From sequence record OQ626344: DNA of 64,000 nucleotides. One strand, given 5' to 3'. Source of the stretch: Escherichia phage S127 BCL3. Both the position numbers and the translations under genes were made by a program. The first letter of the stretch is position 1; every line of letters starts with the position of its first letter. Of the stretch, positions 47,129-53,436 are shown one piece after another. Under the pieces are notes generated by a model. It ran no database searches and had not been told where the DNA came from. It saw only the letters and a list, made by a program, of their open reading frames with translations.

Positions 47129-48313
47129 TCAAGCTTTAGCTAAAATGGCGCTAAACTCTTCACCAAACTCTTTTACAATCTTCATCAGGTTTGGGTATGC
47201 TTTGATCAGCTGAGCAACGATCTTGTCCCTGCCTTTACCAATAAGTAAGGCATTTCCTAAGGCGTTAGGTTTCATCATCGCCATAAAGACTGAGAATACA
47301 AAGTCTCGGTTCTCATCCTTGAAATTTTCCCAAAGGAAATCAAGGAAGTTTGCCACACAGCTGACAAGATCTTCGTCGGAGATACTTGCATTTTCCATCA
47401 TATTACGAATAGCGATACAACCTTCTGACCCCAGAATCCACAAGATGTCTGGCTGCTTAGGACCTACATATTCTTTGCAGCCTCCTGCCATAATCCGACC
47501 GATTTCTGGCAAGTTTCGTTTCTTGGTGTGGTAGGTCCAAATTTCTACCGCTGCAGTGTGACCAATTGCACCTTGTAGAAGGACACGGGCCATAGCGTCA
47601 GAAATAATACCGCTGTCAAAATCGTGCAGGATGTCAGATGCAGCAACCCAAGATCGCGGTGTAGCAAAAGATGGACAATTAATCTCAGCCATGGCCTCAT
47701 AATTATCGATGGCTGATGGGACTCTTTTCAGATATCCAATTACCGAGGAGTGCACCCCATTAAGGAATGCATAGTCCTCAATAAACACCTCTGCACTGCT
47801 TGTAACTTCTACAATGATAAAGCGGTTAGCTAGAGGAGCTTCGAGTGCCGAAAGAACAGCACCGTCTGTAGCACGGTTACCTGCAGCTACAAAAACAGAG
47901 CCTTTAGGAAATGCATAGGTGCCGCACTTGTGGTCGAGCATAATTTGCATTGCAACCTTCTGCAGGTAGTTATCTGCATGAGTAAGCTCGTCTAGAAAGA
48001 TAATTCCGCTCCAGTCCGGATCTGCAGGCCAAAATTCTGGAATTGCAAACACTGTACGTGTAGTTCCATCTGCCTCCACAGGGATAGGCAGTCCAGATAA
48101 GTCAGCAGGATCTTTATCTGACAACCGCACGTCAACCAGGTTGTCATCTCGCTCACCGAACATATTATCAGCAATCTGCTTCATCACCTGGCTCTTCCCC
48201 ACGCCCATCGGTCCTAAAATCAGGACAGATCGGTTATGACGCTGGGCAAATTGAATAATAGCTGGCAACTCGCGGACAGTGATTTGACCACTTTCGAATA
48301 CGTTTCTCGACAT
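47129..48313 (-). CDS. AAA+ ATPase (AAA_5/MoxR-like)
   Basis: 394 aa; Walker A GPMGVGKS; Walker B IIFLDEL; sensor VAAGN. Confidence 0.75.
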   Translation of the reverse strand: MSRNVFESGQITVRELPAIIQFAQRHNRSVLILGPMGVGKSQVMKQIADNMFGERDDNLVDVRLSDKDPADLSGLPIPVEADGTTRTVFAIPEFWPADPDWSGIIFLDELTHADNYLQKVAMQIMLDHKCGTYAFPKGSVFVAAGNRATDGAVLSALEAPLANRFIIVEVTSSAEVFIEDYAFLNGVHSSVIGYLKRVPSAIDNYEAMAEINCPSFATPRSWVAASDILHDFDSGIISDAMARVLLQGAIGHTAAVEIWTYHTKKRNLPEIGRIMAGGCKEYVGPKQPDILWILGSEGCIAIRNMMENASISDEDLVSCVANFLDFLWENFKDENRDFVFSVFMAMMKPNALGNALLIGKGRDKIVAQLIKAYPNLMKIVKEFGEEFSAILAKA

Positions 48314-48582
48314 TAGTAAAAGTCCTCTACTTGTGTGTAAGTGTTTTCAAAGTTTTCCAAAACAGACATCACATCGGATCTGTCAATATCATACGCAACT
48401 CTCCAGCCATATGCAACCCTTTCTGCTGTTGCCTCTTCTGGCGCTAGTCGTCTGCTGGCATAAAAGAGTGTTGGAGTACACTTTCTTGCTTGCCCTCTAA
48501 CTTTCCCATAATAATATCTGTGAATATCTTTGTCAAAATTTAATTCTTTTTCTGCACGAAGTTCGTACTGCTGGTATAACAT
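48313..48582 (-). CDS. hypothetical protein
   Basis: 89-aa ORF; AAGGAG RBS. Confidence 0.65.
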   Translation of the reverse strand: MLYQQYELRAEKELNFDKDIHRYYYGKVRGQARKCTPTLFYASRRLAPEEATAERVAYGWRVAYDIDRSDVMSVLENFENTYTQVEDFY

Positions 48583-48626
48583 CTCTACTGCTCCTTAAGC
48601 AGCATCCTTGCCGCCATCCCTACCCA

Positions 48627-49007
48627 CTAAAATGCAGTCCGAATCCAGACAAGGTTCTTATCTGCCCAATCATAGAGGCAAGTCATTGCACTATTGAATT
48701 GCTCACACGGAGGATAATCTTCTTCCATCTTGCGCATAGCAGAGCCTTGTGGGTAAAGCTCCCGTGCTGCAAACCACGCGTCGTAGTCATCAACGGTATC
48801 GAAGTAGTATACAACATCCTCCAACTCAGGATCGAACTTTGAACTATCAGGATCCAGCTGTTCAGGGAACTTGGAGCGTAACTTGCCAGCCACAATACTT
48901 GCCAACTCGCTAACATGTTTGTTGTCCCACTCTACCAGTTTCCCGTCTTCAGTTATGCGTCCTAACCACTGATCATGAAGGTCAACTGTTGTCTTCCACT
49001 GGGCCAT
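48627..49007 (-). CDS. hypothetical protein
   Basis: 126-aa ORF; GAAGAGG RBS. Confidence 0.7.
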   Translation of the reverse strand: MAQWKTTVDLHDQWLGRITEDGKLVEWDNKHVSELASIVAGKLRSKFPEQLDPDSSKFDPELEDVVYYFDTVDDYDAWFAARELYPQGSAMRKMEEDYPPCEQFNSAMTCLYDWADKNLVWIRTAF

Positions 49008-49009
49008 TA

Positions 49010-51942: not shown

Positions 51943-51947
51943 TGACA

Positions 51948-51968
51948 GGGGCCAATGGCCCCTTCTGG
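51948..51968 (+). terminator. putative terminator hairpin
   Basis: GGGGCC-AAT-GGCCCC then T-rich; very short loop. Confidence 0.3.
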
Positions 51969-51975
51969 AGTTTTA

Positions 51976-53436
51976 ATGGATAGCAGAAGTTCAGAAATCA
52001 TTACCGCACAAAAAGATGATGCCTTGCGAATGCTGCAGGCCGCTCGCATGTACCTTCTTGAAAAGCTGCCGTTTTATGGCACACTGTTGTCAGGGTTGCA
52101 GTTCGTAGAAAACCACACATGGTGCTCCACTATGGCAACAGACCATAAACGCATCTACTACAGTCCTGAGTTCATTATGGGGTTGGCAGATGAGCGTAAA
52201 ACCATTCTTAAAGCATCTCTGACTGACAAGCAGTTTGAGATGGCTGAAGTTTTCTATTCCCCAAAATCTGTGAAAGAGGTGGCCTTTCTTCTGTCACATG
52301 AGGTGGGGCATATTATCTGTGATCATCTGGTCCGTGGTAAAAGCTTTGAGCCGGAACTGTTCAATATTGCTTGTGATCACGTTATCAACACAGGTCTTGT
52401 GGTTGACTTTAGCAAGCCTCCTTGTGTTTTCTTCCCGAAGGGGAAAAGCACTGAGTTCGTAAAAGGTAAGCCTTTTGGCTTCTTAGCCAGTTGCTACTGC
52501 GACATGAAGTTTCATGGATGGATTGCTGAGAACGTCTATGCAGTTCTTGATAAACAAAGAGATCAGAATAGCGGTAAAAGTAAGAACGGTAAAGGTGAGA
52601 ACTCCCAAGGAGATAAACGACAAACCGATGATCACATGAGTGGGAACGGTGGCACCAGTGATGATCTTGGAAAGGCTATGGGGTATGATCAGCCGCAACC
52701 AGTAATCAGTCAATCTGATAAAGATCAGGCCATGCAGGACTCTGGTGACATGTTGGAAGCAGCAATGCAAGCTTCAGGAGGTCGTTGCCCCGAGGCGGTG
52801 CGCGAGTTTGTCAAAAACAGAGGCAAGCCTGTAATCAATTATATAGATATTATTAAGCAACGTATGTTATCTAAAAGAAAGGCTGAGTTAACCTACAGAA
52901 AACCTGGTCGCCGATCTGGGTCTTTGACCACCACAATGCGAAAAGTTGGAGCTATAAACAAGAATCAACACGTTATTGTTCCTGGTCGTAATCCGGAAAA
53001 CACTATAGATATTGTAGTGGCTTTAGACGTTTCTGGATCGATCTCACAAAGAACTTTAAAGAAAATGTTCAATGAGATCACCGGGTTGTGCAATTTGTAT
53101 AAAGAGTTTAAGGTTACGATGTTCTGTTGGTCAACCGAGGTTGGAGAGGTTAAAGTATACACTCGCGGTAACATCGATGAGATGATCAACTATGAGGTCC
53201 ACTCAACATGGGGCACAACAGCCGCCTGCGTGTTCGAGTATCTGGATGCTAACATACCGAATGCAAAAGATGTCATCGTCCTTACCGACCTCTACTTTGA
53301 GCATAACTTTGAACAAAAGGCTGTTGACAACAAGTGGAAAAAGTACGATACTTTATGGGTTCTCACCGAAGGGTATAATAAAAATTATATCCCGAGCTTT
53401 GGGAAAACTGTGGAATTAATCGAGTACGCTAAGTAA
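51976..53436 (+). CDS. putative metallopeptidase (HExxH) plus VWA-like domain protein (DUF2201-type)
   Basis: ATG at 51976; HEVGHIICDH motif; MIDAS-like DVSGSIS; family commonly paired with MoxR ATPases. Confidence 0.7.
   Translation: MDSRSSEIITAQKDDALRMLQAARMYLLEKLPFYGTLLSGLQFVENHTWCSTMATDHKRIYYSPEFIMGLADERKTILKASLTDKQFEMAEVFYSPKSVKEVAFLLSHEVGHIICDHLVRGKSFEPELFNIACDHVINTGLVVDFSKPPCVFFPKGKSTEFVKGKPFGFLASCYCDMKFHGWIAENVYAVLDKQRDQNSGKSKNGKGENSQGDKRQTDDHMSGNGGTSDDLGKAMGYDQPQPVISQSDKDQAMQDSGDMLEAAMQASGGRCPEAVREFVKNRGKPVINYIDIIKQRMLSKRKAELTYRKPGRRSGSLTTTMRKVGAINKNQHVIVPGRNPENTIDIVVALDVSGSISQRTLKKMFNEITGLCNLYKEFKVTMFCWSTEVGEVKVYTRGNIDEMINYEVHSTWGTTAACVFEYLDANIPNAKDVIVLTDLYFEHNFEQKAVDNKWKKYDTLWVLTEGYNKNYIPSFGKTVELIEYAK

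What the first reader, a model, noticed from the sequence alone, without database searches (positions are those of the whole stretch)
47129..53436. AAA+ (MoxR-like) ATPase and metallopeptidase-VWA protein encoded as a split, divergently transcribed pair
The 394-aa ATPase (GPMGVGKS, IIFLDEL, VAAGN) and the 486-aa protein with HEVGHIICDH plus a MIDAS-like DVSGS motif belong to families that normally sit side by side as a two-gene chaperone or activation module. Here they lie 3.6 kb apart on opposite strands, on either side of the divergent promoter pair at 50851-50921. The function of such pairs in phages is not established.
Basis: partly seen in the sequence, partly recalled or inferred. Interest (0 to 1): 0.55.

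Follow-up and report, generated by a model that had tools for sequence, protein, structure and literature searches.

The report
Split phage MoxR ATPase–VWA peptidase pair
This E. coli phage (rV5/FV3 type) carries a MoxR-type motor ATPase and its zinc-peptidase/VWA partner, the same pair as phage N4 gp24/gp25; both genes were already annotated, their separation onto opposite strands is a rearrangement found only in this lineage, and their function is still unknown.

Summary
The window is a Vequintavirus, 99.5% identical to phage vB_EcoM-ECP26. ORF 47129-48313(-) encodes a 394-aa AAA+ ATPase. It misses the Pfam thresholds itself, but homologues, a profile search and its predicted fold (nearest solved structures: NorQ and CbbQ) all place it in the MoxR class. 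ORF 51976-53436(+) encodes a 486-aa protein with a zincin-like domain (DUF2201_N, HExxHxxxxH) and a VWA domain with a complete MIDAS motif.

The two genes lie 3,662 bp apart on opposite strands, on either side of a 142-bp intergenic region with back-to-back sigma-70-like promoter matches. The rV5 genome paper already reported bidirectional promoters there.

Of 80 related viral loci, 73 carry the ATPase within 10 kb, always upstream of the VWA gene. In 64 it is on the same strand (41 with a gap of 200 bp or less). In 9 it is on the opposite strand, and these are exactly the closest relatives of the window. Phage N4 gp24/gp25, Certrevirus (same subfamily) and cellular contigs have the genes adjacent. 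The split is therefore a derived rearrangement.

Both genes are under strong purifying selection (dN/dS 0.011 and 0.048). The most likely mechanism is an ATP-driven remodelling machine, probably also proteolytic. This is inferred, and the target is unknown. The genes are already annotated, so interest is modest.

The parts
47129..48313 (-). MoxR-type AAA+ ATPase gene (394 aa), orthologue of rV5 gene 4 and homologue of N4 gp24
   Evidence: ORF. phrog_1297 at E 2e-110. The following residues are conserved in 66-70 of 70 unique homologues: Walker A G37/G39/K40/S41, Walker B D108/E109, sensor 1 N146, R164 (probable Arg finger) and R220 (ATPRSW, probable sensor 2). Foldseek top hits are NorQ and CbbQ2. 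Annotated 'MoxR ATPase' in MK883717. dN/dS is 0.011 against phage EmilHeitz.
51976..53436 (+). Gene for the zincin-like (DUF2201_N) + VWA/MIDAS (DUF2201) protein, 486 aa; orthologue of rV5 gene 12 and homologue of N4 gp25
50811..50952 (.). Divergent intergenic region with back-to-back sigma-70-like promoter matches: (-) 50851-50879 and (+) 50893-50921
   Evidence: Bidirectional promoters are reported between rV5 genes 10 and 11 (PMC3606486). GC skew changes sign here.
48313..50810 (-). Six intervening minus-strand genes (89, 126, 85, 118, 92 and 299 aa) lying between the leftward promoter and the ATPase gene. They are not part of the conserved pair.
   Evidence: They have no homologues next to the adjacent pairs of Certrevirus, N4 or other lineages. 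The stop codon of the 89-aa ORF overlaps the ATPase start codon by 1 nt (coordinates).
50953..51942 (+). Srd-like ('anti-sigma factor') gene, 329 aa; first gene of the rightward unit, immediately upstream of the VWA gene
   Evidence: phrog_3118 at 2.8e-111, with weaker matches to Srd and sigma-70-decoy PHROGs. rV5 gp11 is described as a Srd homologue. The gene sits next to the VWA gene only in the lineages with the split arrangement.
51947..51963 (.). Perfect palindromic hairpin AGGGGCCAATGGCCCCT between the Srd-like stop codon and the VWA ribosome-binding site
   Evidence: Its function was not tested. It could be a partial terminator or an RNA-stability or processing element.

Best explanation
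The two genes encode the two subunits of a conserved phage MoxR-VWA machine. It is the same module as coliphage N4 gp24 (AAA+ ATPase) and gp25 (vWFA), and as cellular MoxR/DUF2201 gene pairs.

By analogy with solved MoxR-VWA couples (NorQ-NorD, CbbQ-CbbO, Midasin), the ATPase would form a hexameric ring that docks the partner protein. The partner's MIDAS site (Mg2+ held by D-x-S-x-S, T and D) would grip an acidic residue of a target protein, and ATP hydrolysis would remodel that target. Because the partner also carries a strictly conserved HExxHxxxxH zincin motif, the remodelled target, or the partner itself, is probably cleaved.

The genes lie in the non-structural region, beside rIIA/rIIB, helicase and Srd-like genes, behind sigma-70-type promoter matches. 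The machine would therefore act in the cytoplasm of the infected cell, not in the virion.

In Vequintavirus and its closest relatives, a genome rearrangement placed the ATPase in the leftward transcription unit and the partner in the rightward unit of one divergent promoter region. The pair stayed intact and co-retained.

Shown: domain identities, the conserved pairing, that the split is the derived state, and purifying selection.
Inferred: physical interaction, hexamer formation, proteolysis, timing of expression, and the target.
For: Identity of the ATPase.

Identity of the partner.

Pairing. Of 80 IMG/VR loci carrying a partner homologue, 73 have the ATPase within 10 kb, always upstream. 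In 64 it is on the same strand, with a median gap of 114 bp, and in 41 the gap is 200 bp or less. The genes are adjacent in N4 (gp24 at 9938-10996, gp25 at 11164-12306; profile E-values 6e-57 and 2e-53). They are also adjacent in Certrevirus, in the same subfamily, in large metagenomic phage contigs, on a 1.25-Mb cellular contig and in an NCBI genome.

Co-occurrence by host genus in GenBank phages is nearly one to one: Escherichia 215/214, Pseudomonas 108/104, Pectobacterium 26/26, Cronobacter 17/17, Achromobacter 17/17.

The opposite-strand arrangement occurs only in the 9 closest relatives, at 43-62% identity, with gaps of 3.5-5.1 kb.

Both genes are strongly constrained: dN/dS 0.011 and 0.048.

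gp24 and gp25 are listed among the core genes of N4-like phages (PMC7650795).

Two independent inteins interrupt homologues exactly at the HExxH and NxAxD motifs, which points to a functionally critical site.

Neither protein carries the 'MS evidence' flag in the rV5 virion proteome table.
Against: There is no direct evidence that the two proteins interact, in this phage or in any other.

The window ATPase does not itself reach the Pfam AAA_3/AAA_5 thresholds.

None of the well-studied MoxR-VWA couples contains a peptidase domain, so the proteolysis step has no precedent among them.

The promoters are consensus matches only, and expression timing was not measured.

Four related loci had full 10-kb flanks but no ATPase nearby.

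The 80 loci are the best-scoring of 494 and include near-duplicates. Conservation of NxAxD..N and DVSGS among them is partly circular, because those motifs were used as the search patterns.
Confidence: 0.72

Rival explanations
1. Metal-cofactor insertion or enzyme-activation chaperone with no proteolysis. The pair would work like NorQ-NorD, CoxD-CoxE, CbbQ-CbbO or the CobS-CobT/BchI-BchD chelatases. It would open a phage or host metalloenzyme, for example one in nucleotide metabolism, to load or exchange a metal. The HExxH site would then be a metal-binding or metal-delivery site and not a protease.
For: The nearest solved folds to the ATPase are NorQ and CbbQ2. VWA_CoxE matches are found in 12 of 23 partner homologues. 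NorD VWA is among the fold hits. In N4 the pair sits next to dCTP deaminase and thymidylate synthase genes, and in large metagenomic phage contigs a thymidylate synthase gene lies about 1.2 kb downstream.
Against: A glutamate is kept within HExxH in 78 of 79 homologues, which is the signature of a hydrolytic zincin and not of a simple metal-binding site. Proximity to nucleotide-metabolism genes may only reflect the general layout of early and middle phage genes. No candidate client enzyme is consistently co-conserved in the neighbourhoods examined.
Confidence: 0.15
2. Virion-assembly chaperone, like the MoxR ATPase p618 and the VWA protein p892 of Acidianus two-tailed virus, which are implicated in tail development.
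For: This is the only experimentally studied viral MoxR-VWA pair. p618 and p892 interact strongly, and p892 stimulates the ATPase (PMC4124505; cited in PMC7159879).
Against: The genes lie in the non-structural region, far from the morphogenesis genes. Neither rV5 gp4 nor gp12 is flagged as detected by mass spectrometry of virions. The pair occurs in podoviruses (N4-like), myoviruses and jumbo phages with very different virion architectures. Homology of these proteins to p618/p892 beyond the shared superfamily was not tested.
Confidence: 0.07
3. In Vequintavirus the two genes have become functionally uncoupled. After the split each protein works alone or with other partners, and their presence in the same genome is only inheritance.
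For: They lie in different transcription units, 3.7 kb apart. The intervening genes are specific to this lineage.
Against: Both genes are retained in about 117 Vequintavirus records at 95% identity or more and across the more distant lineages with the split arrangement (L006-L014). All catalytic residues are intact and dN/dS is very low. The two units start from the same 142-bp divergent promoter region, which is compatible with co-expression.
Confidence: 0.06

Closest known systems
Coliphage N4 gp24 (AAA+ ATPase) and gp25 (vWFA superfamily), core genes of the N4-like phages (Schitoviridae)
   Same: Homologous proteins (profile E-values 6e-57 and 2e-53). Same two-gene set, with the ATPase gene upstream of the partner gene. 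Located in a non-structural region that also carries rIIA/rIIB-like genes. Function listed as unknown (PMC2784036, PMC7650795).
   Different: In N4 the genes are adjacent on one strand, 167 bp apart. Here they are on opposite strands, 3.7 kb apart. Sequence identity is low, about 21-27%.
NorQ-NorD and CbbQ-CbbO (MoxR AAA+ hexamer plus a VWA/MIDAS adaptor; nitric-oxide reductase maturation and Rubisco activation)
   Same: They are the nearest solved folds to the ATPase (9qh4, 6l1q; E about 1e-7). The partner has a VWA domain with a MIDAS motif, and NorD VWA is among its fold hits.
   Different: NorD and CbbO have no zincin domain. The ATPase here has an extra helical C-terminal extension of about 130 residues. 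The clients of those systems (NorB, Rubisco) are irrelevant to a coliphage.
Cellular MoxR (AAA_3/AAA_5) plus DUF2201_N-DUF2201 gene pairs (annotated 'predicted metal-dependent peptidase')
   Same: Same domain architecture in both proteins and the same gene order (L093 and L090). The family is very large: 27,447 clusters at 50% identity with E of 1e-3 or better.
   Different: The cellular pairs are adjacent. They are uncharacterised too, so they say nothing about function.
MoxR-vWA 'ternary' conflict systems and the general MoxR-vWA chaperone couple (Kaur, Burroughs, Iyer and Aravind, eLife 2020, PMC7159879)
   Same: A MoxR ATPase paired with a vWA/MIDAS protein. That paper notes that peptidase domains, rarely metallopeptidases, can be fused to the vWA component. 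Some ATPase homologues match the bpMoxR Pfam model.
   Different: No third component (VMAP, iSTAND, FtsH or beta-propeller) is conserved next to the phage pair. Here the pair is in virulent phages and not in a host defence locus. There are no PADLOC matches.
Acidianus two-tailed virus p618 (MoxR) and p892 (VWA)
   Same: A virus-encoded MoxR-VWA couple with an experimentally shown interaction (PMC4124505).
   Different: It is an archaeal virus. p618 is a major virion component linked to tail development. Here the context is non-structural and no virion mass-spectrometry evidence was found. Specific homology was not tested.
Midasin/Rea1 (AAA_5 ring plus a C-terminal MIDAS domain)
   Same: Best sequence-profile match in the PDB for the ATPase (2.6e-11). 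The Rea1 MIDAS domain is among the fold hits of the partner. The working logic is the same: an AAA ring moves a MIDAS domain that holds an acidic residue of the client.
   Different: Midasin is a single giant eukaryotic polypeptide with six fused AAA modules and no peptidase.

Membership tests
MoxR-class AAA+ ATPases (Pfam AAA_3 / AAA_5) | Walker A, Walker B, sensor 1, arginine finger and sensor 2 residues are present | tested here: met
   GxxGxGKS (G34-S41), D108-E109, N146, R164 and R220 are conserved in 66-70 of 70 unique homologues. The arginine-finger and sensor-2 roles are assigned by position, not by experiment.
MoxR-class AAA+ ATPases (Pfam AAA_3 / AAA_5) | The protein reaches the curated Pfam score for AAA_3 or AAA_5 | tested here: not met
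   The window protein scores 16.9 bits for AAA_5 (cutoff 22) and 15.5 bits for bpMoxR (cutoff 27). The link is only transitive: homologues at 31-38% identity (E about 1e-44 to the window protein) do hit AAA_3 and AAA_5, in 17 of 36 aligned members.
MoxR-class AAA+ ATPases (Pfam AAA_3 / AAA_5) | The fold is closest to solved MoxR-family members | tested here: met
   AlphaFold model with pLDDT 82. The top 14 Foldseek PDB hits are NorQ and CbbQ2, with E from 1e-7 to 2e-6 and TM-scores normalised to the target of 0.57-0.62. The profile search finds Midasin AAA_5 modules at 2.6e-11.
MoxR-class AAA+ ATPases (Pfam AAA_3 / AAA_5) | Helix-2 insert and pre-sensor-1 beta-hairpin (AAA+ clade 7) | tested here: inconclusive
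   The model shows a hairpin at residues 76-89, between beta2 and beta3, but with pLDDT below 50. It also shows short strands at about 128-134, before the sensor-1 strand. No structural superposition of these elements was done.
MoxR-class AAA+ ATPases (Pfam AAA_3 / AAA_5) | Encoded next to a VWA/MIDAS partner gene | tested here: met
   Met for the family: same strand in 64 of the 73 loci that carry an ATPase, usually adjacent. In the window itself the partner is 3.7 kb away on the other strand.
MoxR-class AAA+ ATPases (Pfam AAA_3 / AAA_5) | Hexamer formation and ATPase activity stimulated by the partner | not testable with these tools
   This needs biochemistry or a multimer structure prediction.
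VWA domain with MIDAS | The D-x-S-x-S ... T ... D metal-ion-dependent adhesion site | tested here: met
   D351, S353, S355, T414 and D438 are invariant in 79 of 79 unique homologues. DVSGS was one of the search patterns, so only T414 and D438 count as independent evidence.
VWA domain with MIDAS | VWA (Rossmann-like) fold | tested here: met
Zincin metallopeptidase (Pfam DUF2201_N, 'putative metallopeptidase') | HExxH motif plus a third zinc ligand | tested here: inconclusive
   HExxH is conserved in 78 of 79 homologues. The candidates for the third ligand, H117 (77 of 79) and D134, are conserved, but which one binds zinc is not known. Inteins inserted exactly at these two motifs in the homologues P0184 and P0244 support a critical site.
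Zincin metallopeptidase (Pfam DUF2201_N, 'putative metallopeptidase') | Fold similarity to a solved zincin peptidase | tested here: not met
Zincin metallopeptidase (Pfam DUF2201_N, 'putative metallopeptidase') | Peptidase activity | not testable with these tools
   No experimental report was found in the searchable literature.
N4 gp24/gp25-type phage module | Both proteins are homologous to gp24 and gp25, and both are encoded in one genome with the ATPase gene upstream | tested here: met
   Profile E-values of 6e-57 (gp24) and 2e-53 (gp25). tblastn hits to N4 and many N4-like phages. The gene order is kept in the sense that the ATPase lies on the upstream side.
MoxR-vWA ternary conflict systems (VMAP / iSTAND / FtsH / beta-propeller) | A conserved third component next to the pair | tested here: not met
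   No gene other than the pair is shared between the window neighbourhood and the loci where the pair is adjacent. There are no PADLOC matches.

The most novel reading that the evidence does not exclude
The pair could be a previously uncharacterised kind of two-subunit AAA+ protease. A MoxR ring would supply the unfolding or remodelling force. A separate adaptor subunit would carry both the substrate-recognition site (MIDAS) and the catalytic zincin. The machine would be used by many families of large virulent phages (N4-like, rV5-like, Rak2-like and other jumbo phages, marine phages) for an essential step of host takeover or replication. The Vequintavirus split would then show that tight operon linkage is not needed for it to work.
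Probability: 0.3. Interest if true: 0.7.

Novelty: already known. Interest (0 to 1): 0.3.

Why it matters
The genes themselves are not new. They have been annotated since the 2013 rV5 genome paper, and the window is 99.5% identical to a deposited phage genome.

What is of some value is the comparative picture. The rV5 'MoxR ATPase' and the 'DUF2201_N hypothetical protein' are the two halves of the N4 gp24/gp25 module. That module is conserved across many unrelated families of large virulent phages and in cells (27,447 sequence clusters), and nobody appears to have tested its function.

Vequintaviruses of the BASEL collection and N4 are both genetically tractable in E. coli K-12. The question of what a MoxR-VWA-zincin machine does during infection can therefore be tested directly.

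The split arrangement is a natural experiment showing that the pair survives without being in one operon.

Tried and rejected
(1) Sequence searches of both single proteins against the PDB. The ATPase gave only P-loop-level hits to ClpB/ClpC, and the partner gave nothing. NCBIfam gave nothing useful.

I therefore have no systematic census of cellular pairs, only three examples obtained through the look-up of encoding contigs.

(3) A single-inversion model for the split. I looked for homologues of the six intervening genes and of the flanking genes next to the adjacent pairs in Certrevirus, N4, Aeromonas-phage-like and metagenomic loci. None were found (blastp at 1e-4; phmmer at 0.01). The rearrangement path cannot be reconstructed.

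(5) A fusion of ATPase and partner into one protein ('Rosetta stone' evidence). The unusually long family members turned out to contain inteins and are not fusions.

(6) Similarity to defence-system proteins. There are no meaningful PADLOC matches.

(7) Literature on function. Searches for DUF2201 with phage, MoxR with bacteriophage, N4 gp24/gp25, rV5 with MoxR, and Vequintavirus with ATPase returned only annotations of 'unknown' function. One planned search (CRISPRi-ART with N4) failed because a term was too short and was not repeated.

(8) Promoter conservation in relatives. A strong plus-strand match (11 of 12) lies upstream of the Srd-like gene in L013, but only weak matches were found in L006. 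This is suggestive only.

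
Full report
WHAT THE WINDOW IS. The 6.3-kb region is 99.5% identical to Escherichia phage vB_EcoM-ECP26. It matches 121 phage records at 90% identity or more, nearly all of them Vequintavirus (rV5/FV3-like myoviruses). In those records the two genes are already labelled 'MoxR ATPase' and 'putative metallopeptidase', 'VWA-like domain-containing protein' or, wrongly, 'anti-sigma factor'. In the 2013 rV5 genome paper they are gene 4 ('MoxR - ATPase', 394 aa) and gene 12 (conserved hypothetical protein, PF13203 DUF2201_N) (PMC3606486 Table S3).

CHECK OF THE OBSERVATION. 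ORF 47129-48313(-) encodes 394 aa containing GPMGVGKS, IIFLDEL and VAAGN. The plus-strand ORF runs 51955-53436. The 486-aa product starts at ATG 51976, 5 nt after a GGAG ribosome-binding site, and contains HEVGHIICDH and DVSGS. The start codons are 3,662 bp apart on opposite strands. Six minus-strand genes lie between them (89, 126, 85, 118, 92 and 299 aa). Next comes a 142-bp intergenic region (50811-50952), then a plus-strand Srd-like gene (50953-51942). These are pattern matches only.

THE ATPASE. On its own the protein gives only sub-threshold Pfam hits to several AAA families and P-loop-level PDB hits. Three lines of evidence place it in the MoxR class.
- Homologues with E about 1e-44 (31-38% identity over about 85% of the protein) carry Pfam AAA_3 (the MoxR family), AAA_5 and sometimes bpMoxR.
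- A profile built from 36 family members finds the AAA_5 modules of Midasin as the best PDB hit (2.6e-11).
- An AlphaFold model (pLDDT 82) is closest to NorQ and CbbQ2, both MoxR-family proteins that work with VWA partners (Foldseek E about 1e-7).
Walker A, Walker B, sensor 1 (N146), R164 and R220 are conserved in 66-70 of 70 unique homologues.

ARE THE TWO GENES A PAIR? Yes.
- tblastn finds the two proteins in the same phage groups with almost equal counts per host genus.
- Of 80 IMG/VR loci carrying a partner homologue with up to 10 kb on each side, 73 contain the ATPase, always on the upstream side. In 64 it is on the same strand (41 with a gap of 200 bp or less; median 114 bp). In 9 it is on the opposite strand, 3.5-5.1 kb away.
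- Three of the seven loci without an ATPase lack upstream sequence.
- The nine opposite-strand loci are exactly the closest relatives of the window (43-62% identity; Vequintavirus-, Avunavirus-, Seunavirus- and Klebsiella-phage-like).
- The next closest relatives (34-35% identity; Certrevirus, in the same subfamily) have the genes adjacent on one strand.
- Phage N4 gp24 and gp25 are homologues (6e-57 and 2e-53) and are adjacent. They are listed among the core genes of N4-like phages with unknown function (PMC7650795, PMC2784036).
- The genes are also adjacent in large metagenomic phage contigs, in a 578-kb contig, in an NCBI genome and on a 1.25-Mb cellular contig.
Adjacency is therefore the ancestral state, and the split arose within Vequintavirinae. 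I could not reconstruct how it arose, because the intervening genes have no homologues beside the adjacent pairs.

CONSTRAINT. Compared with phage EmilHeitz, dN/dS is 0.011 for the ATPase, the lowest of seven genes tested, and 0.048 for the partner. Both are therefore maintained in the lineage with the split arrangement. The partner family is very large: 27,447 clusters at 50% identity with E of 1e-3 or better, and 7,506 at 1e-30 or better.

MECHANISM. The following is inferred by analogy with studied MoxR-VWA couples (reviewed in PMC7159879; NorQ-NorD and CbbQ structures among the fold hits). The ATPase would form a hexamer that docks the partner. The MIDAS site would hold an acidic residue of a client protein. 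ATP hydrolysis would remodel the client. The conserved zincin site would then cleave the client or the partner itself. Three observations favour a cytoplasmic role during infection over a structural one: the genes lie in the non-structural region beside rIIA/rIIB and helicase genes, behind host-type promoter matches; no virion mass-spectrometry evidence is flagged in rV5; and the pair occurs in phages of very different morphology. The rival explanations are a metal-insertion or activation chaperone without proteolysis, a virion-assembly chaperone as in ATV p618/p892 (PMC4124505), and functional uncoupling after the split. No interaction, activity, timing or target has been shown for any member of this phage module in the literature I could search.

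VERDICT. It concerns genes already annotated in a well-known phage type, and the divergent promoters are already published. What this work adds is threefold. The two rV5-type genes are recognised as the N4 gp24/gp25 module. The split is shown to be a derived rearrangement specific to one lineage. Both halves are shown to remain under strong constraint. Interest is modest. The open question, what this widespread MoxR-VWA-zincin pair does in phage infection, is genuine and can be tested experimentally in E. coli phages.

Noticed in passing
Homologues P0184 (794 aa) and P0244 (733 aa) of the protein encoded at window 51976-53436: Two independent inteins (Hint plus LAGLIDADG) interrupt the zincin-like domain. 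One follows HEVLH directly, and after splicing the sequence reads HEVLH-CVYEH. The other lies inside WNMA|CDYNIN, the NxAxD motif. Inteins usually sit in the catalytic sites of important proteins, so this supports a functional active site.
   Followed up: partly
window 47129-53436 compared with GenBank records MG065662, MG065672, MG065674, MG065677 and others: Sixteen records named 'Campylobacter phage' (host given as C. jejuni in 15) are about 93% identical to this E. coli Vequintavirus region. They are probably mislabelled or contaminant genomes.
   Followed up: no
window 51976-53436 and 48313-48582: Annotation noise. phrog_1314 names the zincin-VWA protein 'HNH endonuclease'. The ECP26 and B9-1 records call it 'anti-sigma factor', apparently carried over from the neighbouring Srd-like gene. 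phrog_13164, the 89-aa ORF upstream of the ATPase gene, is labelled 'ATPase'.
   Followed up: partly
rV5 reference genome genes 12 and 13 (orthologous to window 51976-53436): The rV5 gene table lists gene 12 as 441 aa plus an overlapping 81-aa gene 13, where this window and most relatives have a single 486-aa ORF. This suggests a frameshift or sequencing error in the VWA domain of the reference record.
   Followed up: no
window 51947-51963: A perfect 7-bp-stem palindromic hairpin (AGGGGCC AAT GGCCCCT) sits between the stop codon of the Srd-like gene and the ribosome-binding site of the VWA gene. It could attenuate or stabilise the transcript.
   Followed up: no
window 48311-48315: The stop codon of the 89-aa ORF (48313-48582) overlaps the ATPase start codon by one nucleotide, which suggests translational coupling. 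The same overlap is present in rV5 genes 5 and 4.
   Followed up: no
L088 (578-kb metagenomic contig), positions 1592-8591: In this very large contig the ATPase-partner pair lies among HSP20, ClpS and ClpP genes, a small cluster of protein-quality-control genes. This fits a proteostasis or proteolysis role.
   Followed up: no
window 52573-52662 (residues 200-229 of the partner protein): A Gly/Ser/Lys/Asp-rich low-complexity insertion (pLDDT below 50) interrupts the zincin-like domain. Its length varies greatly among homologues, from 0 to about 70 residues.
   Followed up: no
window 42994-46689: rIIB, rIIA and a Hydrolase_2 cell-wall hydrolase gene lie just downstream of the ATPase gene on the minus strand. 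N4 also has rIIA/rIIB-like genes a few kb from gp24/gp25. This may be a remnant of an ancient shared layout of early and middle genes.
   Followed up: no
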